The notes under the pieces: generated by a model
What the model saw: the letters and a program-made list of their open reading frames with translations, nothing else
Told to the model about the DNA's origin: nothing
The model's database searches: none
Assembly: GCF_964213995.1 (NCBI RefSeq)
Contig: NW_027590122.1
Coordinates: 682,001-746,000, forward strand
Direction of reading: 5' to 3'
DNA from: Mustelus asterias
Lineage: Eukaryota
Length of the DNA stretch: 64,000 nt
Program-made: the position numbers and the translations under genes
Shown here: piece after piece, positions 3,205 through 35,088 of the stretch
How the letters are laid out: the number at the start of each line of letters is the position of its first letter
How positions within the stretch are numbered: the stretch's first letter is position 1

Positions 3205-3963
3205 TCACTCGTGAACTTGTTGGTGTCTCAGCAGCTGGGATGAAACTGTGAATCCCTTCCCACACACAGAGCAGGTGAACGGCCTCTCCCCAGTGTGAAC
3301 TCGTTGGTGTCTCTGCAGGTGGGATGACTGAGTGAATCCCTTCCCACACTGAGAGCAGGTGAACGGCCTCTCCCCAGTGTGAACTCGCTGGTGTGCCCGC
3401 AGGTTAGGTGAGTTACTGAATCCCTTCCCACACTGAGAGCAGATGAATGGTTTCTCCCCAGTGTGAACTCGCTGGTGTATCCACAGGCTGGATAACAGAA
3501 TGAATCCCTTCCCACACTGAGAGCAGGTGAACGGCCTCTCCCCAGTGTGACGTCGCTGGTGTCTCTGCAGGTTGGCTGACTGAGTGAATTCTTGCCCACA
3601 CTGAGAGCACGTGAACGGTCTCTCTCCAGTGTGAACTCGCTGGTGTGTCCGCAGGCTGGATAACTGAGTGAATCCCTTCTCACACTGAGAGCAGATGAAT
3701 GGCCTCTCCCCAGTGTGAACTCGCTGGTGTCTCTGCAGGTCGGGTAACTGAGTGAATCCCTTCCCACACTGAGAGCAGGTAAATGGCCTCTCTCCAGTGT
3801 GAACTCGCTGGTGTCTCTGCATGAGGGAAAGCCGAGTGAATCCCTTCCCACACTGAGAGCAGATGAATGGTCTCTCCCCAGTGTGGCTGCGCCGATGAGC
3901 TTCCAGCTTAGATGGGGCTCTGTATCCCTTCCCACAGTCCGCACATTTCCATGGTTTCTCCAT
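3205..3963 (-). CDS. C2H2 zinc-finger protein, 9 tandem fingers, ~252 aa, intact (ZNF gene 1)
   Basis: ATG at 3963 (MEKPWKC...). Nine CxxC-x12-HxxxH units with TGERPF linkers and no internal stop. Probable exon acceptor ttttacag|g at 4314. Probable polyA AATAAA not resolved. Confidence 0.9.
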
Positions 3964-4450
3964 GGTCCAGGTGTCCTTACCTCTCTCTTGAGTGGACAAT
4001 TAGTTGAAACTTCGTCCACACACAGAACAAGATTACAGTCTCTACCCGCTGTGAATGGTGTGATATTTATTCAGACTGTGTAACTGGTTAAAGCTCTTTA
4101 GTCAGTGCAGTGGAACACTCTCACTCAAGTGTGTCAGTGTGTTGATGCTTTTTCACTCACACTGACATTTCAAATGTTTTCAAATCGACAGACTGGACAA
4201 TCATTTCTCCTTCTGGATTCAAAATCCGATGACATTGAGGTCCCAAGGAATATGACTCTGTCACGTCTCGACGTGATGTTTGAGATTTCAGCCTGTGATT
4301 CCTCTTTCAATATCCTGTAAAATGAGTTTCCAAAAGTCATCAGTGTCAGTACAGGATAGAAATTCAGAACAGACAATTTCTATGGAACATTCTTTCCTCT
4401 CTCATTCCCCAAAAGCTGTAAATCTCCATCCCACACACTCTCTCCCCATT

Positions 4451-5840: not shown

Positions 5841-6039
5841 TTTAAGAGAGAGAGAGACCTGGGCCAACCTTTCCAGAGTCTGCACCCTCTCTGGATTCAC
5901 TTCCTTTCCCTTCAGTTGCTCCAAGTCCCCAATTTCGGCCAGAATGAGAAAAGAAATGGAAAGGGGGTTGAAAAGAAAGTGTTTTACTCACAGATGTTGG
6001 AGACAGGGGGAAGTTTGAGTCTGTCTGAAGATCAATCTT

Positions 6040-6450
6040 CATTCACACAAAGCCCACGCTCTGATTGGCTGGAAGACCAGAGTCCTTCCGGTCCTCCAAC
6101 TCTTCCCATTGGTCAACACCTCAGCATGAAGATCAGAGGGTGGGTTCTCCCCCGCACATGCGCAGCTTCCCCTCTCCCTCGAACATGTGCAGTCCCGGGC
6201 CCGGGGGAGGGGGAGCTCACCGAGCGGCTTCTCGCTCTTGCCGGAGCCGTCAGCCGGTTGCCTGGAAACCTTGGTTCAAGGAGGTGTAGGGGGAGGGGAA
6301 CAGTGGGTGGGGGCGGGGCTCCCGGGTCCGCGCGCCCGGGCCTGCGCACTGGAACCCGGAGACGTCACCGCGGAGCACAGTGATTCCTATTGGCTGATTC
6401 AGGCAGGGCTCCATTGTGATGTCACAATGCGGATGTTGGCCAGTGAGCTT
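6040..6450. promoter_or_regulatory. CpG-island promoter, probably bidirectional, for ZNF gene(s)
   Basis: High CpG density. ATTGG (CCAAT) boxes near 6064, 6108 and 6389. GC box GGGGCGGGG near 6310. NRF1-like CATGCGCA near 6157. Minus-strand splice donor ct|gtgagt at ~5990. Confidence 0.7.
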
Positions 6451-6696: not shown

Positions 6697-7078
6697 CACA
6701 CATGAGGACGGCCTCAACCGGGATCTTGGGTTCATGTCACACTATCTGTAACCCCCACGACTTGCCTGGGCTTGCAAAATCTCACTAACTGTCCTGGCTG
6801 GAGACAATACACATCTCTTTAACCTGTGCTTAACCCTCTCTCCACTCACATTGTCTGTACCTTTAAGACTTGATTACCTGTAAAGACTCGTATTCCAACC
6901 ATTATTCTGTAAATTGAGTTTGTGTCTTTATATGCCCTGTTTGTGAACAGAACTCCCACTCACCTGATGAAGGGGCAGCGCTCCGAAAGCCTGTGGCTTA
7001 TGCTACCAAATTAACCTGTTGGATTTTAACCTGGTGTTATGAGATTACTTAGTGTGCTTATCCCAGTCCAACGCCGGC
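6697..7078 (+). mobile_element. Penelope-like element 3' end (GIY-YIG C-terminus plus pLTR), family 1
   Basis: 6698-6751 reads THEDGLNRDLGFMSHYL*; GLNRD is typical of the PLE GIY-YIG end. The pLTR contains the hammerhead core CAC-CTGATGA-A-GGGGC-AGC-GCTCC-GAAA at 6961-6995. Confidence 0.8.
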
Positions 7079-7233
7079 ACATCTTTGGACTGTGGAAGGA
7101 AAACCGGAACACCCGGAGGAAACCCACAGACACGGGGAGAATGTAGAAACTCTGCACAGACAGTGACCTGAGGCTGGAATTGAACCCGGGTCCCTGGCGC
7201 TGTTAGGCAGCTGCATTAACCACTGTGCCACCG
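7079..7233 (-). mobile_element. HE1-like tRNA-derived SINE, 5' part
   Basis: Reverse complement reads GGTGGCACAGTGGTTA..GGGTTCAATTCC (A and B boxes). Confidence 0.85.
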
Positions 7234-7900: not shown

Positions 7901-8239
7901 CTTTGTGGATCCGGAAACCCTTCAGAATCATTGTCAGCTCCCTGGTTTGCAGCTGCGGGGCTTCTCCCTCCCTCCCTCCCGGGAACAGGCCCAGGTTAAC
8001 GGCCCCATCCTGGCTCAGCCACTGGAGGATGGTTCACATCAGAGGATGGGGGAGGGGGACAATAAATAAGAGGTTACACTTTGGCCTCAAATCAATGAGG
8101 ACTCTGATCTCTGGGAAGGAAGGAAACCCTGGGAGGTGGGCGGGGAGGATTCACAAACACCCGCTGGAGGCCCCAACACACCCAACAAGACCCATTGGTT
8201 TTATTGTCAGTCTGCAGACAGGAGCTGGAGAACTGAATC

Positions 8240-8408
8240 CAGTAAGATTTTTAACAACACCAGGTTAAAGTCCAACAGGTTTATTTGGTAGCAAACACCA
8301 TTAGCTACCATTAGGTGTTTGCTACCAAATAAACCTGTTGGACTTTAACCTGGTGTTGTTAAAACTCTTACTGTGTTCACCCCAGTCCAACGCCGGCATC
8401 TCCACATC
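8240..8408. mobile_element. Penelope family 1 pLTR fragment in inverted (hairpin) arrangement with 14-bp TSD
   Basis: 60-bp inverted arms at 8240-8299 and 8314-8373 (1 mismatch). TSD agaactgaa(t/c)ccag at 8229-8242 and 8409-8422. Confidence 0.85.
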
Positions 8409-8966
8409 AGAACTGAACCCAGACAGAGGAGAGGGAGGGAGCAAACTGGGAGTGGAGAAAAGAGATGGTGAGATGGGTTTGGATTTCAGCCCAGGGAGGA
8501 GGGAGAGTTTGTGGGACAGGAATTTATTGATTTGGGGAACAAGAGAGGAAGAAATGTTCCAGAGAATTAGAATTGCCTGTTCAAAATTTCTATCCTGGAC
8601 TGACAGTGATTAATTTTGTAAACTCCTTTTACAGGTGAGGTGAAGAAACATCACATCAAAATCAGACAGAGTCTCGATTCACTTGGACTTACATATCCTC
8701 AGACTTTGAATGTGGAAGGAGAAATGTTTGTCTTCTGTCTGGAGGAGAAGATTTCAAACATCAGCGTGACTGAAAAAGCACCAAGATACACGCACACCCG
8801 AGTGAGAGTGTTTCAGTGAGTTGACTGTGGAAAGAGCTTTATCCAGTTACACAGCCTTAAAAAACATCACACCATTCACAGCACGGAGAAACTGTACACG
8901 TGTTCTGTGTGTGGATGAGGCTTCAACTGATCGTTTAACCTGGAGAAACATAAGGACACCAGCACC

Positions 8967-9713
8967 ATGGAGAAACCGTGGAAATGTGGGGACTGTGGGA
9001 AAGGATTCAGTTACCCTTCCCTGTTGGAAAACCATCGGCGCAGTCACACTGGGGAGAGACCGTTCACCTGTTCTGTCTGTGGGGAGGGATTCATTCAGTC
9101 ATCTGGCCTTTGGTCTCACCAGAGAATTCACACTGAGGAAAAGCCATTCATCTGCACCTCCTGTGGGAAGAGGTTCAGGCATTCTTCAGCACTCACTGTG
9201 CACCAACGCACTCACACCGGGGAGAGACCATTCATCTGCTCCGCGTGTGGGAAGCGATTCACTCAGTCATTCCACCTGCTGTCACACCAGCGAGTTCATA
9301 CTGGGGAGAGGCCGTTCACCTGCTCCGACTGTGGGAAGGGATTCACTGGGTCATCCCACTTACTGTCACACCAGCGAGTTCACATTGAGGAGAAGCCATT
9401 CAGCTGCACTGACTGTGGACGGAGTTTCAGACAGGCATCCTCCCTCGTTGCACACCAGCGAATTCACACTGGGGAGAGACTGTTTACTTGCTTTGTGTGT
9501 GGAAAGGGATTCACAGTTTTACCCACCCTGCTGAGACACCAGAAAATTCACACTGAAGAGAAGCCATTCAGCTGCACTGACTGTGGAAAGAATTTCAGGC
9601 AGTCATCCAACCTCACTGCTCACCGACGCACTCACACTGCAGAAAGACCATTTACATGCTCCGTGTGTGGGAAGGGATTCAATCGGCCATCCAACCTCTC
9701 TGCTCACCAGTGA
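8967..9713 (+). CDS. C2H2 zinc-finger protein (ZNF gene 2): 8 intact fingers, premature TGA in finger 9, two relic fingers to ~9890
   Basis: MEKPWKC start and TGERPF/TEEKPF linkers. TGA at 9711-9713 replaces the Arg of HQRxH. In-frame finger remnants follow. Acceptor ttttacag|g at 8634/8635. Confidence 0.8.
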
Positions 9714-21475: not shown

Positions 21476-21975
21476 ATTAATACATAGAAGATGGACAGAG
21501 AAAGGAAAGATTTACAGTGCAGAGATGGTGGAGGTTGAGGGTTTGGGAGTTTCTGTCTGGTTGTAGATGTATCCTTTCCTTCACCTCTTCTCCTCCCACA
21601 TCTCTTAATCCCGCCCATCCGCTGCCTCTTCACCTTGAAGCTCTGGTCTTGTATAGGTTCAGACTGGCTCAAAGGTTCCCTTCCCTGAAGGACATTAGTG
21701 AACCAGTTGGGTTTTTGTGACAATCCATCAGTTTTCTTGGTCACTTTTTCCCAGTGCCGGCCCCACAGATTACCAGATTCATTCAGCTCAATTTCACAAC
21801 CTGGCTTTGTGTTTTTGTGGGTTCTCTCTCACTCTCTTTTTTTTCTTTTTTAAATCAATTTCACAGCATATTCAAAGGTGAGGATTTGCAGTCAGAAAAC
21901 TGAAACCAAACATCACATCAGGATCAGACAGAGTCGCCCAATTTATCGTAATATGCGTATCATTGGATTTTGAAC

Positions 21976-22743
21976 ATGGAAGGAAAAAGCACCGCTCACA
22001 GTGGGGAGAAACTGTACACGTGTTCCGTGTGTGGACGAGGATTCAGCCGTTTATCTGGCCTGTCAAAACATAAATGCAGTCACGGTGGGGAGAAATTGTG
22101 GAAATGTGAGTGTTGTGGCAAGGGATTCAGTTCCCCATCGGAGCTGGAAATTCATCGACGGAGTCACACTGGGGAGAGACCGTTCACCTGCTCCGAGTGT
22201 GGGAAAGGATTCACTCAGTTGTCCCACCTGATGAGACACCAGCGAGTTCACACTGGGGAGAGACCTTTCACCTGCTCCGAGTGCAAAATGGGATTCACTC
22301 AGTCAACCCACCTGGTGACACACCAGCGAGTTCACACTGGGGAGAGACCATTCACCTGCTCCGAGTGAGGGAAGAAATTCAGCTGGTCGTTTCACCTTCT
22401 GATTCACCAGCGAATTCACTCTGGAGAGAGACCATTCACCTGCTCTGAGTGTGAGAAGGCTTTCATTACATCAACAGAACTGTTGACACACCAGCGGATT
22501 CACACTGAGGATAACCCGTTCACCTGCTCCAAATGTGGGAAGGAATTCGCTAACTCTTCTAACCTGATCTGCCATCAACGGATTCACACTGACGAGAGAC
22601 CTTTTAAATGCCCAGACTGTGGAAAGTGCTTTAAAAGTTTTGGGAACTTGATGACCCATCAACGGGTTCACACTCGAGTCCGTTCAGATGCTTTCACTGT
22701 GGGACTGAGTTCAGACAATATCCAGTGCAGATTTAGATATTAG
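21976..22743 (+). pseudogene. C2H2 zinc-finger gene 3: 8 fingers with an in-frame TGA in finger 5 (pseudogene or truncated 4-finger protein)
   Basis: ATG at 21976. TGA at 22366-22368 replaces the second Cys. The same frame continues to TAG at 22743. Acceptor tttcacag at 21866. AATAAA near 22758. Confidence 0.8.
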
Positions 22744-24239: not shown

Positions 24240-24545
24240 CCATGGCGGTGCTCTTACCCAGCATGCGCAGCGAGAGAGAATGTGCCGCATTGTCACAAGA
24301 GCAGCCGCTTGCGCAGGCGCAGTACCTGATTCCGAGTGGAGCATGCGCTCTGCGGATTCGGACTGGCCCATGCGCAATGTGGATGCTGGAGCTGCAGGGA
24401 GGCGGGGAAGTGGGTGCAGAGGCTTCAGAAACAGACCGGAAGGACACTTGTACTCCAGCCAATCAGTGGGTGGGCTTTGTGACACAGGAGGTTGAGCTTC
24501 ACACCGACTGAACCTTCTTCCTGTGTCCTACATCTGTGAGTAAAA
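24240..24545 (+). promoter_or_regulatory. CpG-island promoter and first exon of the ZNF promoter family, with no ZNF coding exon downstream
   Basis: Several NRF1-like GCATGCGC/GCGCAGGCGCA motifs, ETS ACCGGAAG, CCAAT (24459). Donor catct|gtgagtaaaac matches the minus-strand donor at ~5990. Confidence 0.65.
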
Positions 24546-24571
24546 CAGTTTGTTTGTGTTGCAGATAAAGT

Positions 24572-24893
24572 CATGATGTAGAGATGCCGGCGTTGGACTG
24601 GGGTGAACACAGTAAGAAGTCTCACAACACCAGGTTAAAGTCCAACAGGTTTATTTGGTAGCAAATACCATAAGCTTTCGGAGCGCTGCTCCTTCATCAG
24701 ATGGAGTGGAAATGTGCTCTCAAACAGTGCAAAGAGACACAAAATCAAGTTGCAGAATACTGATTAGAATGCGAATCCCTACAGCCAGCCAGGTCTTAAA
24801 GGTACAGACAATGTGGATGGAGGGAGCATTAAACACAGGTTAAAGAGATGTGTATTGTCTTCAGACAGAGGTTGTTCTGTCTGGAGACAATAC
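24572..24893 (-). mobile_element. Penelope family 1 3' end and pLTR with an intact minimal hammerhead
   Basis: Homologous to 6790-7078. An 18-bp inverted repeat (gtattgtcttcagacaga / tctgtctggagacaatac) sits at the 5'-truncation junction. Confidence 0.8.
24668..24704 (-). ncRNA. Minimal hammerhead ribozyme motif (PLE type)
   Basis: Minus strand reads CCAU-CUGAUGA-A-GGAGC-AGC-GCUCC-GAA-AGCU-U-AUGG. Stem I is CCAU/AUGG, stem II is 5 bp, and palindromic AGCU replaces stem III. Confidence 0.7.
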
Positions 24894-25416
24894 AAAATAT
24901 TGGTAAGGCCACAGTTGGAATACTTTGTGCAGTTCTGGTCACCCTATTATAGGAAGGGTATTATTAATCTTGAAAGAGTGCAGAAAAGATTTACTCGGAT
25001 GCTACCGGGACTTGATGGTTTAAATTATAATGAGTGGTTGGATAGATTGGGGCTTTTCATTTCTGGAGCGTAGGAGGCTGAGTGGTGATCTTACAGAGGC
25101 GCATAGATCAGCTTGATAGTAAATATATTTTCCCAAAGGTAGGGGAGCCTGAAATGAGAGGGCATAAGTTTAAGGTGAGAGGGGAGAGATATAAAGGGGT
25201 CCAGAGGGGTAATTCTTTCACACAGAGGGTGGTGAATGTCTGGAACAAGCTGCCAGATAGTCTTTTAAAAAGCGCATAGAGAGTTGCATGGCTATTGAGG
25301 GTAATGGGCCAAACACGGGCAATTAGGACGAGCTTTGTCGTTAAAAAGGGCGGCATGGACATGTTGGGCCGAAGGGCCTGTTTGCATGCTTATACCTCTG
25401 TGACTCTATGACTCTA
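24893..25416 (+). mobile_element. CR1 3' fragment
   Basis: LVRPQLEYFVQFWSPYY..ERVQKRFTRMLPG, followed by an (actctatg) tail. Confidence 0.9.
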
Positions 25417-26444
25417 TTTCACCTTCCTGATTCTCCCAGATACTGATTCCAGATGAGTCAGCCTCCGATTTAAATGGATGAAGGAGATATCATTATGCTG
25501 TGTTGTAAAATGCGATTGGCTGAGCAACTTGTCAGGAATTATTATTGATGTATGTTTACTGAACGTAATTGATTCTTAAACTAATATGAGGTCGGAACGA
25601 TCGGTACGAAAATCTATAATTGATCTGTTATTGATGGTACACGTTAGATGCATCGGAAAGATCCTGCCGCTCTGTTCCAGAGCTACTTAACCCTTTTGGT
25701 CATCTCCAAGCAGTTGCTTGTTGTGTTTTTGTTTTAAATAAATGTTCCGTCCTTACACAGAGATATCTGCCATGTGAGTTTTATATTGTCTGTAGTTAAA
25801 TACAGTATTGGTCATCTCAAATTATCCCATAGCACTCGCCTTAATTTGGAAATTTGTAATCTATTATGTGCTTATGTGAAATGCACCTCAGTCTCTTGGT
25901 TTCACCTCATGGTTTGCACCTCTGCTCTGTATGTGTTCTCTATCTAGCTTGTGGCATGTCTGCCTTGTAAGTACTTCATCGGACGAAATATAGAGAGATT
26001 CACACTGTTAACCCACGCTGCAGCGACACTGATAGTTTTTTTAAGGGGCAGTGTAAAGGAAACTATCTTCTGCCACACACTGTCCTGCATCGGCCTCTGA
26101 TGAAACAGAGCCTTTGCTTTTTTGAATTACCTGAAACTCGGTCAGTGACAGACCAGTTTATGAGTGAAATCACCGCGGTTCTCCCCGTTCTTCACTCGCT
26201 CTGTCCCTGGATTTTATCATAAAAAGGCAGAGATGAAGGTGTCTTTATACGGGTTGGCCACTGGGTGGCGCAGTGACTCTTTCACTGAACGGCCTTGAGT
26301 TCAAACACATCCCGCACAGAACTGGGGGAACAGACATGTCTGGGAAAGAGGGGAAACCGTATAATATGGAATATGGGGCGGAGTTGATGGGCTTTGGAAA
26401 ACGGAATTAAGCCAAGCCAGAGATGGTTAAATTTTCATTCAATA

Positions 26445-26450
26445 TTTATT
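26445..26450 (-). terminator. Probable polyadenylation signal of membrane IgM mRNA
   Basis: AATAAA on the minus strand ~450 nt after the TM2 stop. Confidence 0.55.
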
Positions 26451-26902
26451 TTAAAAATTCAGAGAATATTTTACAGCGACATTAGTTTTTAAAGTTAGAA
26501 AAGTGAATTTAACGATCGAGCTTCACATTGAGAACACAACACATGCACAGGGAATCCGTCAATATTTGTACATCTGTTACACACACCAGAAAGAGAAAAC
26601 AGGACCTTAATAGAAAGAGGAATTAACAAATATGGATAAGGAATGAGAAAAGCTTCTTATTTATACATGATATTTAAACTATGGGGAAACTGTTAACCAC
26701 AATTACATTATAACAAAAAATGCCTCGTGCTTTTCACTCTGAAAACTGAAATACCGTCTACGATTGTCTCAGTTACAGATTCAGAATGATAAACTGAGAG
26801 AATTTTACTGATAGAGTCACCGAGAGCAGATATTGTATTTGTGTCATACGGAGATCATAATAATCAGCTGAGGGAAATCTGCAGCTTCCAAAATTCAACC
26901 CA

Positions 26903-26911
26903 TCACTTGAT
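26903..26911 (-). CDS. IGHM: IgM TM2 exon (IK-stop, giving a KIK cytoplasmic tail)
   Basis: Polypyrimidine acceptor tctttcttttacag|ATC AAG TGA, 140 nt after the TM1 donor. Confidence 0.85.
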   Translation of the reverse strand: MK

Positions 26912-27051
26912 CTGTAAAAGAAAGATACAATAATGAAGCAGATATTTATGATGCGGGACATTAAAGTTAGAGTTTTTAATCAGTGGAACATTGAGAGATT
27001 TTTCAAATCCATTCTGTCAGTTTGATATGTGAGTGCATTCAATCATCTCAC

Positions 27052-27179
27052 CTTCACCAGAGTGACTGCAGTGCTGTAGAAAATGCTCAGGAAGAACAGG
27101 ACAATGAATGTGGAAGCCGTTGTCCAGATGTTACTGTTATCATCCTCATTGTCTTCAATCCAGATGCGGTCGGTGGAGT
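27052..27179 (-). CDS. IGHM: IgM TM1 exon
   Basis: ctag|(D)STDRIWIEDNEDDNSNIWTTASTFIVLFFLSIFYSTAVTLVK|gtgaga. Contains the conserved antigen-receptor TM motif (W.TASTF..LF.LS..YS..VT). Confidence 0.95.
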
Positions 27180-28052
27180 CTAGGGGACGGAGACCAGGAG
27201 AGGAAATTAGATTACTTTATTTATCCAGGTAATCTTATTGTTATTTTTCTTTTCCCCGTTCTCCTTTTTAAACTGTTCATTTATTCTTGAACTTAATTTT
27301 CAATGTATACCTACTCTTAAGCTCAGGACACTCAGTAACCAATCTCCGTAACTATTTTCACACCTGATCTTTATTGACATTCCTTGGACAGTCCATGTCA
27401 GAAAGCACTGAAGGTGTTTTCTTGAAAATCAGTTGATTTTTTGACAATTCGGAACTATCCCTTATTGAAGAATATTATCACTGATATCGAGGAACGTTCA
27501 CTGATCAATGATTGTTTTCACAGATGGTTACTGATCTGTAAACTGTGAATGTTGTTGTTTAAGAGTTGGGATGTAATTTCCGATCTGTGCTTCTTTATGG
27601 TGGAAATGTTTCGTAGATCGTGAGCTTAATTCAGTTTCTCAACGTGTTTATCTGTTCATTGTACATTGGGATAATAAATCTGTGGATATCTCCATTAAAA
27701 AGTCACGTTTAAATTGTACTTTCATCATTTGCCTACCGTTTGTATTGAAGATTTTGCATTTGTGTGCGTGTGCATGAGCATCTCGTGCTCTGCATTAATC
27801 TTTGGCTCTGAGTTAATATGTGATTATGAGTGTTAATGTGCGCCTACATTTGCCAGTGATTGTTGATTTGTGTAGTTGTGTGTCTGCATCTGTGCGCATA
27901 TTTTATTCTTTTGTCATTGTGTATATATGACTCTATTATTGTGTGAAGTCTATGAATATATATTAATGCCACTATTAATGCGTGCACATGTGTTTATGCC
28001 TATTGCTATGTGTTGATTTCTGTCACTCTAATAATGTTTGTTTCCCTTTCTG

Positions 28053-28181
28053 TGGAGTTGCCGGCGTTGGACTGGGGTCGGCACAGTAAGTAGTCTCACA
28101 ACACCAGGTTAAAGTCCAACAGGTTTATTTGGTTACACGAGCTTTCGGAGCGTTGCCCCTTCATCAGGTGACTACTTACTG
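28053..28181 (-). mobile_element. Solo Penelope family 1 pLTR with short inverted tail and TSD
   Basis: TSD tgtttccctttctg(tg) at 28039 and 28180. Bases 28170-28181 are the reverse complement of 28084-28095. Confidence 0.85.
28136..28170 (-). ncRNA. Minimal hammerhead ribozyme motif (PLE type), sense to IgM pre-mRNA
   Basis: Minus strand reads CAC-CUGAUGA-A-GGGGC-AAC-GCUCC-GAA-AGCU-C-GUG. Confidence 0.7.
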
Positions 28182-28759
28182 TTTCCCTTTCTGTGTGCGT
28201 CTGTTTCTCCATGTGTCTGTGTGCACGCCTGTTAACATGTCAGTGTATGTATACACGTGTTGACATTCTTTATAACGGTGTGTTGATGTTTATTTGTGTT
28301 TCGATGTGTAGTAATGTGTGCTATGGTGTTCTGTTCTATGAGCATGTTAATGTTTGCGTCTACATGTTTGTGTGTAAATGTTTTGCTGTCTGTTCTTCTG
28401 TATGCAGTCTGGTGATTTGTTTATATGTATTTCCATATATGTTTGTGAATGTGTATAACATTGTGTGTCTTTATATCTATATTCCTATCAGCGTGAACGT
28501 GTGCTAATATATGTATTTATTTGAGTCTAAGTATGTGCTTGTGTATTTATGTGGGTCTGCATGCGTGTGTATCTGTCTGTATTGTGTCTATGCATGTATG
28601 TGTTTGTGTTTGGGTCTGTACCTACTCACGTATGTGTATGTGTATGTACTTGTGTGTTTCATGTGTACATGTGTGCGTTTGTACATATTTGATTATGTGT
28701 GTGTATGTTGTTGTTTTAGTGTCTGTTTGTACAAGAGCGCGTGTCTATGTGTTCGTATG

Positions 28760-30751: not shown

Positions 30752-30766
30752 TTTATTCTTTTTATT
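30752..30766 (-). terminator. Tandem polyadenylation signals of secreted IgM mRNA
   Basis: AATAAA on the minus strand at 30761-30766 and 30752-30757, ~30 nt after the secretory stop. Confidence 0.8.
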
Positions 30767-30793: not shown

Positions 30794-31185
30794 TCATTGA
30801 CATGAATTAACGGTGTCCATCAGTGCAAGGGAAATGTTCACAAAACTGGGTTTACCGCTGGATTTGTCAACTGTTCTGTTGATGATCTTCAAGGGGATGG
30901 CTTCATGTCCCACCACACAGGAGTAAGAAGCGCCGCTGGACCATTCCTCTGCTGCAATGGATAACAGGCTGTACATGAAGAAGGAGCTATTCCCGCTCTC
31001 CGCGACCACCTCGGTGTTCCTGTAGTTCCCAGGATTCACCGGCTTGTCGTTGACGGTCCACTTGACGAAGATCTCTCGCGGGGAGAAACGTCTCACTAAG
31101 CAGCTGAGGGAGACGAATCTCTGAGCGGAGACTTCTTCTGTCGAGGGCAGGAGGACAGAGACGAACGGTTCCCGCGGATTTGAAT
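30794..31185 (-). CDS. IGHM: IgM Cmu4 exon plus secretory tailpiece (internal donor at 30856 for the membrane form)
   Basis: tgcag|(D)[78 protein letters not shown]. The tailpiece has an NIS sequon and a penultimate Cys. Internal donor G|GTAAAC. Confidence 0.97.
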
Positions 31186-34964: not shown

Positions 34965-35088
34965 ATCCACTCACCTGATGAAGGAGCTCCAAAAGCTCGC
35001 AATTCCAAATAAACCTGTTGGACTTTAACCTGGTGTGGTCAGACTCCTTACTGTGCCCATCCCCACCTAACGCCGGCATCTCCACATT
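34965..35088 (+). mobile_element. Penelope family 1 pLTR with a degenerate hammerhead
   Basis: CACCTGATGAAGGAGCTCCAAAAGCTC (stem II loop deleted, GAAA changed to AAAA), followed by aaataaacctgttggactttaacctggtg..cgccggcatctccaca. Confidence 0.8.

What the first reader, a model, noticed from the sequence alone, without database searches (positions are those of the whole stretch)
24668..28170. Two intact minimal hammerhead ribozymes, sense to the IgM transcript, flanking the TM exons
Seen: intact cores at 28136-28170 (Cmu4-TM1 intron, ~960 nt before TM1) and 24668-24704 (~1.7 kb past the membrane polyA). Both are on the IgM sense strand. Stem I covaries between them (CAC/GUG versus CAU/AUG). 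Stem II keeps pairing (GGAGC/GCUCC versus GGGGC/GCUCC with a G-U) while the loop varies. Both carry the same AGCU palindrome in place of stem III and one extra A after CUGAUGA. The plus-strand copies (6961, 34972) are mutated in the core. Established: PLE minimal hammerheads cleave poorly as monomers and are proposed to act as dimers through the palindrome. Inference (speculative): intronic cleavage could bias secreted versus membrane IgM, or the pair could dimerise in a read-through transcript and promote termination. The covariation may only reflect selection within the transposon.
Basis: partly seen in the sequence, partly recalled or inferred. Interest (0 to 1): 0.7.

Follow-up and report, generated by a model that had tools for sequence, protein, structure and literature searches.

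The report
Penelope hammerhead stubs in shark IgM
The two tiny self-cutting-RNA motifs beside this shark antibody gene's membrane exons are real, but they are end pieces of a jumping gene with over 50,000 such copies in the genome, most sister antibody genes lack them, and they are likely inert passengers rather than a switch between secreted and membrane antibody.

Summary
Both motifs are present as described. They lie in truncated terminal-repeat (pLTR) stubs of a Penelope-like retrotransposon (RT + GIY-YIG, Neptune-type linker). One tight core pattern has 52,528 exact matches in the genome. The CAC/GUG versus CAU/AUG covariation separates two transposon subfamilies (15,396 and 23,509 copies), so it was not selected at IgM. 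Stub A (intron, 125 nt, 16-bp TSD) is found at 34 assembled sites, 32 of them among about 105 IgM Cmu4 hits. Fifteen of 25 close paralogs show the clean empty site. Stub B is in 8 of those 34. Across paralogs the motif varies as much as its flanks (8/35 versus 184/1145 columns). In 0.99 Mb of spectrin-family genes, intact cores lie 16 sense and 12 antisense. In context, A is predicted to misfold, and an A-B dimer would have a C·A mismatch beside B's cut site. Verdict: a known kind of element, most likely neutral. The scan has found such stubs many times on other DNA. By-product: filled and empty clusters, 97-99% identical in Cmu4, are a natural control for any effect on IgM splicing.

The parts
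28055..28179 (-). Stub A: 125-nt truncated pLTR insertion of a Penelope-like element in the Cmu4-TM1 intron
   Evidence: Filled versus empty paralogs aligned; homologous to the pLTR of full-length elements
28136..28170 (-). Minimal type I hammerhead motif A (stem I 3 bp, stem II 5 bp with one G-U, AGCU palindrome, extra A after A9); predicted cut 28139/28138
28180..28195 (-). Upstream copy of the 16-bp target-site duplication of stub A
28039..28054 (-). Downstream copy of the 16-bp target-site duplication (its first bases also match the element's end)
28170..28182 (-). 13-nt inverted piece at the 5' junction, complementary to 28095-28083. Predicted to form a 13-bp helix that takes the first base of stem I. 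Contains GUAAGU, a 5' splice-site-like hexamer
   Evidence: sequence; folding
28124..28129 (-). AATAAA carried by stub A; one of 7 sense-strand AATAAA in the intron beyond the two secretory ones
24576..24872 (-). Stub B: 297-nt pLTR copy of another subfamily, 96-98% identical over its length to unrelated genomic copies; preceded by a 14-nt inverted piece (24890-24877)
24668..24704 (-). Minimal hammerhead motif B (stem I 4 bp, stem II 5 bp); predicted cut 24672/24671
30794..31185 (-). IgM Cmu4 exon with secretory tailpiece; internal 5' splice site after 30856; AATAAA at 30766 and 30757
27052..27179 (-). TM1 exon
   Evidence: the joint 27052-26911 appears in contigs of 3 of 4 laid runs
26445..26911 (-). 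TM2 exon (Ile-Lys-stop) and 3' UTR to the membrane-form AATAAA
6794..7079 (+). Stub C of the same family, core damaged (U16.1>C), outside the IgM unit
34966..35087 (+). Stub D, antisense in the J-Cmu1 intron, stem II partly deleted and G12>A
8234..8409 (.). Fold-back stub of the same family lacking the hammerhead

Best explanation
Both motifs sit in truncated terminal-repeat stubs of an abundant Penelope-like retrotransposon, inserted separately and then copied along as IgM clusters duplicated, and they are likely inert in the IgM transcript. Shown: homology to the pLTRs that flank an RT-GIY-YIG ORF; TSD and empty sites for A; nested distribution (A at 34 sites, B in 8 of them); paralog variation at flank level. 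Inferred: in the parent element the hammerhead would cut the element's RNA as a dimer of two identical tandem pLTRs paired through the AGCU palindrome, which explains the family-level covariation. A lone stub cannot close stem III (two-nucleotide loop), has no matched partner in the pre-mRNA, and is predicted to be trapped in another fold, so the intron would splice normally.
For: Full-length parent: L112 has pLTR - 903-aa open frame - pLTR, both pLTRs 80% identical to B, RVT_1 E=4e-10. A GIY-YIG frame runs straight into the same repeat. 52,528 exact core matches. Stem I classes genome-wide: CAU/AUG 23,509, CAC/GUG 15,396, mismatched CAC/AUG 1,807. A: filled in 10 and cleanly empty in 15 of 25 close loci; not found at the site in 16 more divergent loci; 34 junctions genome-wide. 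B junction in 8 of 34. Variable columns among 30 distinct paralog rows: motif 8/35, catalytic core 2/11, rest of insert 16/81, flanks 184/1145; Fisher p=0.35 and 0.69. 12 of 34 copies have a core substitution (3) or a broken stem II pair (9). Control genes: all copies 41 sense / 41 antisense, intact 16/12, p=0.57. Folding in context gives stem I probability <=0.01 in 34 of 34 paralogs. An A-B dimer has one C·A mismatch. A tested metazoan minimal hammerhead showed no cleavage as a monomer and low cleavage as dimer or trimer (PMC4209133).
Against: 31 of 34 paralogs keep the strict core and 22 of 34 keep core plus both stems. With 11 core positions and closely related paralogs, the selection test has little power. 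A-bearing clusters are numerous (32 of the 55 closest Cmu4 hits), which could reflect selection as well as drift in duplication. The strand control is blunted because most control insertions are inverted pairs; only 5 intact copies were solo (3 sense, 2 antisense). Folding is an equilibrium prediction at 37 C, above shark body temperature. Motif B folds moderately in its 297-nt context (stem II 0.44). No cleavage or expression data were obtained.
Confidence: 0.9

Rival explanations
1. Stub A slightly shifts processing through its non-catalytic signals: its AATAAA followed by a GU-rich tract acts as a weak intronic poly(A) site, or its junction GUAAGU as a cryptic 5' splice site, lowering the membrane form in the clusters that carry it.
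For: AATAAA is kept in 34 of 34 copies, and the 9 junction columns do not vary in the 28 distinct rows. The secreted/membrane choice rests on competition between this intron's splicing and polyadenylation (recalled from mammalian IgM, no call).
Against: The intron already has 6 other sense AATAAA past the secretory signals. Invariance of 6 or 9 columns is expected by chance at 16% variable columns (about 0.35 and 0.2). Sense copies with AATAAA are common in control introns.
Confidence: 0.05
2. One reading: A cuts the Cmu4-TM1 intron co-transcriptionally (alone, as a homodimer or paired with B) and biases output to secreted IgM, or the pair aids termination.
For: Cores intact and on the sense strand. 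Efficient hammerheads can cut nascent Pol II RNA (PMC2288634 passages).
Against: Most clusters lack A and only 8 have both. No selection signal. A misfolds in context. The heterodimer has C·A next to B's cut and a terminal U·G next to A's. B lies past the membrane poly(A) site. Even an efficient hammerhead inside an intron left splicing intact; only a fast HDV ribozyme blocked it (PMC2995048 passages reporting Dye 2006 and Fong 2009).
Confidence: 0.03
3. Abundant transcripts of the active element pair in trans with genomic stubs and cut host pre-mRNAs at a low rate genome-wide, IgM included.
For: The family is very young and abundant (150 of 150 scored endonuclease-domain hits at 99-100% identity; 93,137 candidates). 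The youngest subfamily has CAC/GUG stem I and AGCU, matching A. Repeat-matching contigs are plentiful in runs guessed to be RNA from related organisms.
Against: The trans complex would rest on 3 + 4 + 3 bp (helix energies -0.2, -2.5, -0.2 kcal/mol each with initiation). No depletion of sense copies in genes.
Confidence: 0.02

Closest known systems
Minimal hammerheads (min-HHR) in pLTRs of metazoan Penelope-like elements (Cervera and De la Pena 2014, PMC4209133; parts 1-2 of 4 read)
   Same: Type I topology, no stem III, palindrome at 15-16, one extra base between positions 9 and 10.1, G10.1-C11.1, thousands of dispersed solo copies from truncated elements, subfamilies with compensatory changes.
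   Different: Copy number (>52,000 by one tight pattern) exceeds the roughly 4,000 (coelacanth) and 9,000 (Xenopus) quoted there. Stems here are shorter (I 3-4 bp, II 5 bp) than the Schistosoma type (4-5 and 7-8 bp). Sharks are not named in the parts read.
EN+ Penelope-like elements of the Neptune type (Craig et al. 2021, PMC8557442; passages read)
   Same: [quoted passage not shown]
   Different: Clade not tested with a tree; Nematis shares the linker.
Non-LTR retrozymes (bioRxiv 10.64898/2026.07.22.740005; abstract and part 1 of 2 of Results read)
   Same: Hammerhead-bearing non-coding repeats related to PLE pLTRs, present in a chondrichthyan, about 44% intronic in Xenopus.
   Different: These two are solo stubs with ragged 5' ends, not tandem units. 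The preprint reports depletion from introns; my control tests strand, not intron depletion.
Engineered intronic or downstream ribozymes acting on Pol II transcripts (PMC2288634 and PMC2995048; passages read)
   Different: Those are efficient monomeric ribozymes, and a hammerhead cut inside an intron did not prevent splicing.

Membership tests
PLE minimal hammerhead | CUGANGA / GAAA / UH core in type I order with stems I and II | tested here: met
PLE minimal hammerhead | Palindrome in place of stem III; extra base after A9; G10.1-C11.1 | tested here: met
   AGCU, extra A and G-C in both; features from PMC4209133
PLE minimal hammerhead | Located in the pLTR of an RT + GIY-YIG element | tested here: met
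PLE minimal hammerhead | Compensatory changes between subfamilies | tested here: met
   the U-G class (CAU/GUG) was not counted genome-wide
PLE minimal hammerhead | Self-cleavage as a dimer | not testable with these tools
   needs an in vitro assay
Rfam hammerhead families | Match to a covariance model | tested here: not met
   no hammerhead family among 19 matches at E<=10
Neptune-type EN+ PLE (parent element) | RT followed by C-terminal GIY-YIG in one ORF | tested here: met
   RVT_1; PF01541 over cut-off at L097, same C-terminal sequence in L112
Neptune-type EN+ PLE (parent element) | CX2-5CxxC linker between RT and endonuclease | tested here: met
   read in the L112 translation; definition from PMC8557442
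Neptune-type EN+ PLE (parent element) | RT phylogeny places it in Neptune rather than Nematis | not tested
   no reference RTs fetched
Non-LTR retrozyme | Tandem non-coding units able to form multimers or circles | tested here: not met
   A and B are solo stubs of different subfamilies 3.3 kb apart
Host-domesticated ribozyme | Conserved at the orthologous or paralogous site | tested here: not met
   empty in 15 of 25 close loci and absent at the site in 16 divergent loci
Host-domesticated ribozyme | Purifying selection on the motif after insertion | tested here: inconclusive
   no signal (8/35 versus 184/1145 variable columns) but low power
Host-domesticated ribozyme | Effect on the host transcript | not testable with these tools
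   only assembled contigs were available

The most novel reading that the evidence does not exclude
A single retrotransposon insertion into the Cmu4-TM1 intron, spread by duplication to about a third of this shark's IgM clusters, tilts those clusters toward secreted IgM (through its poly(A) signal, cryptic donor or ribozyme). That would give cluster-specific control of the secreted/membrane switch without class switching.
Probability: 0.05. Interest if true: 0.7.

Novelty: new member of a known kind. Interest (0 to 1): 0.12.

Why it matters
As it stands it is ordinary: two of tens of thousands of transposon stubs. Two modest uses remain. The nested insertions (A, then B) order duplications in the young IgM cluster expansion. 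And filled and empty clusters 97-99% identical in Cmu4 coexist in one genome, so a single B-cell RNA data set could test whether a minimal hammerhead stub affects a host pre-mRNA at a sensitive splice/poly(A) decision; PMC4209133 notes the lack of in vivo evidence for these motifs. If an effect existed, it would be a transposon-derived regulator of antibody form; I found no such report.

Tried and rejected
Rfam scan: no hammerhead hit; the miRNA hits are fold-back repeats below gathering score. Sequencing runs: no RNA holder listed on record; all 18 candidate RNA runs were guesses with small shares. The six runs laid were all contigs, which cannot show ends, strand or cleavage; table 6 was empty in both calls. 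This is no evidence either way. One search listed no joint matching the exact empty site, so the state of the site in other species is open. Strand asymmetry in the window (2 intact sense, 2 damaged plus-strand): rejected, since one of the four is outside the gene, and with 25 of 43 long copies intact the pattern has a chance of about 0.06 (hand calculation). Covariation as evidence that the pair co-evolved: rejected. In one search the index for the 13-bp helix was off by one and printed 0.0; the structure line shows the helix and one search gives 1.00 for the window copy. One search is the 30-copy version of the selection test; (34 copies) supersedes it. Lunse et al. 2016/2017 (dimer cleavage of PLE hammerheads) was not available; I saw only its title and the summary in the review PMC6765202 (passages). 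PMC6466107 (passages) added nothing specific. No supplementary files were read; the alignments in the supplement of PMC4209133 may already include a shark motif.

Full report
Observation. Both motifs are at the stated places on the minus strand, and a descriptor for an intact minimal type I hammerhead finds only these two in the window. The host is an apparently intact IgM cluster: a V frame at about 46.7 kb, RSS-flanked D at about 46.04 kb, J at 45.2 kb, four C1-set exons, a secretory tailpiece, TM1 and TM2. The TM1-TM2 joint appears in contigs of 3 of 4 laid runs. 'Shark' is inferred from the multi-cluster IgM layout and from earlier scan notes; no call names the organism. Rfam returned no hammerhead family.

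What the motifs belong to. Self-comparison of the window shows five pieces of one repeat: 6794-7079, 8234-8409, 24576-24872, 28055-28179 and 34966-35087. The last 134 nt of B matched the 40 scored places at 96-100% on many chromosomes. A GIY-YIG search gave 8 hits; at L097 the frame ends at about 1800 and the repeat starts at about 1833 on the same strand. That frame found 150 of 150 scored hits at 99-100% identity among 93,137 candidates. L112 has the full layout: pLTR, 903-aa open frame, pLTR, with RVT_1 at E=4e-10 and a CX4CX2C linker of the Neptune/Nematis kind (definition in PMC8557442). The stubs share a fixed end just at the ORF's ATG and have ragged 5' ends. Because the repeat stands at both ends of the ORF, I do not claim which end of the RNA they were copied from; earlier scan notes argue for the front end, which I did not test.

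Abundance and covariation. One 28-letter core pattern has 26,115 + 26,413 exact matches in 3.68 Gb, and the reversed control has 0. This omits the youngest subfamily, whose stem II differs. With stem I added, CAU/AUG has 23,509 copies, CAC/GUG 15,396 and the mismatched CAC/AUG 1,807; the U-G class was not counted. Stem II also changes with pairing kept between subfamilies (GGAGC/GCUCC, GGGGC/GCUCC, GGGGC/GCCUC, GGAAC/GUUCC). So the structure is under selection in the mobile element, and A and B simply come from two subfamilies.

Paralogous clusters. Cmu4 has about 105 IgM-like hits at 71% identity or more, 55 of them at 95% or more (counted; unplaced contigs may duplicate haplotypes, so these are assembled copies, not genes). 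I fetched 40 of them. Among 25 close loci (24 plus the window), 10 carry A and 15 show a clean empty site with a single copy of the 16-bp target. None of the 16 more divergent loci has it at that site; 4 of them carry other stubs elsewhere in the intron (3 sense and truncated, 1 antisense). The A junction occurs at 34 places, 32 of them beside one of the 55 close hits. B's junction is in 8 of the 34. A therefore inserted once within the recent expansion, B later in one sub-branch, and most IgM clusters do without either.

Selection after insertion. In all 34 A copies (30 distinct rows), variable columns are 8 of 35 in the motif, 2 of 11 in the catalytic core, 16 of 81 in the rest of the insert and 184 of 1145 in the flanks (Fisher p=0.35 and 0.69). 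Changes include G8>U (1 copy), G12>A (2) and broken stem II pairs (9). Against my reading: 31 of 34 keep the core, 22 of 34 keep core and both stems, and the test has low power.

Is a sense-strand intact copy unusual? I sampled 991,900 bases inside spectrin-repeat genes oriented by their exons (ten intervals). The longest interval begins with an exon matching dystrophin; that its far end is the same gene I judge from recall. The repeat occurs 41 times sense and 41 antisense; intact cores 16 and 12 (p=0.57; 13 and 10 without that gene). One 10-kb stretch holds three sense cores within 1.1 kb. The density predicts 1.8 intact cores per 64 kb and about a 9% chance of a same-strand neighbour within 3.5 kb. 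Most control insertions are inverted pairs, which evens the strands; only 5 intact copies were solo (3 sense, 2 antisense).

Folding and dimer logic. Alone, each 35-37-nt motif forms stems I and II, but stem III cannot close around two bases. In context, A begins with an inverted piece of its own downstream sequence, giving a 13-bp helix (28182-28170 with 28095-28083; probability 1.00). Stem II falls to 0.01 and stem I to 0.00. Stem I is at most 0.01 in all 34 paralogs, and at most 0.07 in the window copy at 7 transcript lengths tried; stem II reaches 0.6-0.8 in 7 paralogs. B does better (stem II 0.44, stem I 0.32). In a double hammerhead, stem I forms between the two partners (inferred from the type I topology). 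B also lies beyond the membrane poly(A) site.

Literature. PMC4209133 (parts 1-2 of 4) describes this motif class in PLE pLTRs and as dispersed solo copies; the tested monomer was inactive and dimers weak. The review PMC6765202 (passages) says the same. PMC2995048 (passages) reports that a hammerhead cut inside an intron leaves splicing intact, while a fast HDV ribozyme blocks it. A 2026 preprint finds related repeats in a chondrichthyan. Searches for hammerhead + Penelope + shark, shark IgM polyadenylation and ribozyme + immunoglobulin heavy chain showed, from their listings, no report of a ribozyme in Ig secreted/membrane control; the library lacks most subscription papers. The scan's notes hold 265 findings with my search words in at least 27 genomes; these are unchecked leads, not support.

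Verdict. Real motifs, known class, most likely neutral passengers (0.9). If stub A has any effect on IgM, its AATAAA or junction GUAAGU is a slightly better candidate than catalysis. The filled/empty cluster pairs make this directly testable. Interest 0.12.

Noticed in passing
G000, e.g. L111 (C1:47985200-47995199), L112 (C6:32497000-32503500): A very young, very abundant Penelope-like family with open 880-910-aa frames in head-to-tail tandems; 150 of 150 scored endonuclease-domain hits are 99-100% identical. Its hammerhead has N7=A and a different stem II.
   Followed up: partly
window 28182-28170 and 24890-24877: Both stubs begin with a 13-14-nt inverted copy of element sequence, a miniature of the inverted 5' pieces known for PLEs. 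In A it creates a GUAAGU hexamer.
   Followed up: partly
window 24890-24250 against L051, L079, L081, L088, L090: These paralogs share B's upstream flank but have neither B nor its downstream flank in the fetched stretch; no TSD is evident for B, which may sit at a deletion or rearrangement breakpoint.
   Followed up: partly
L033 (C479): Carries stub A with G12>A but shows no TM1 or TM2 match in the 7.3 kb after A: possibly a cluster that has lost its membrane exons.
   Followed up: no
G000 C71 and many small contigs: About 105 assembled IgM Cmu4 copies, 55 of them at least 95% identical: a large recent expansion, perhaps inflated by haplotype duplicates.
   Followed up: partly
window 3208-3999 (-), 8931-9710 (+), 21952-22704 (+): C2H2 zinc-finger gene arrays directly downstream of the IgM cluster; a GC-rich stretch at 24434-24555 resembles 5972-6093 near those genes.
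   Followed up: no
C123:555105 (L117) and C1148:105071 (L119): A-bearing intron segments with no Cmu4 hit listed beside them: possibly partial duplications, or hits beyond the 150 scored.
   Followed up: no
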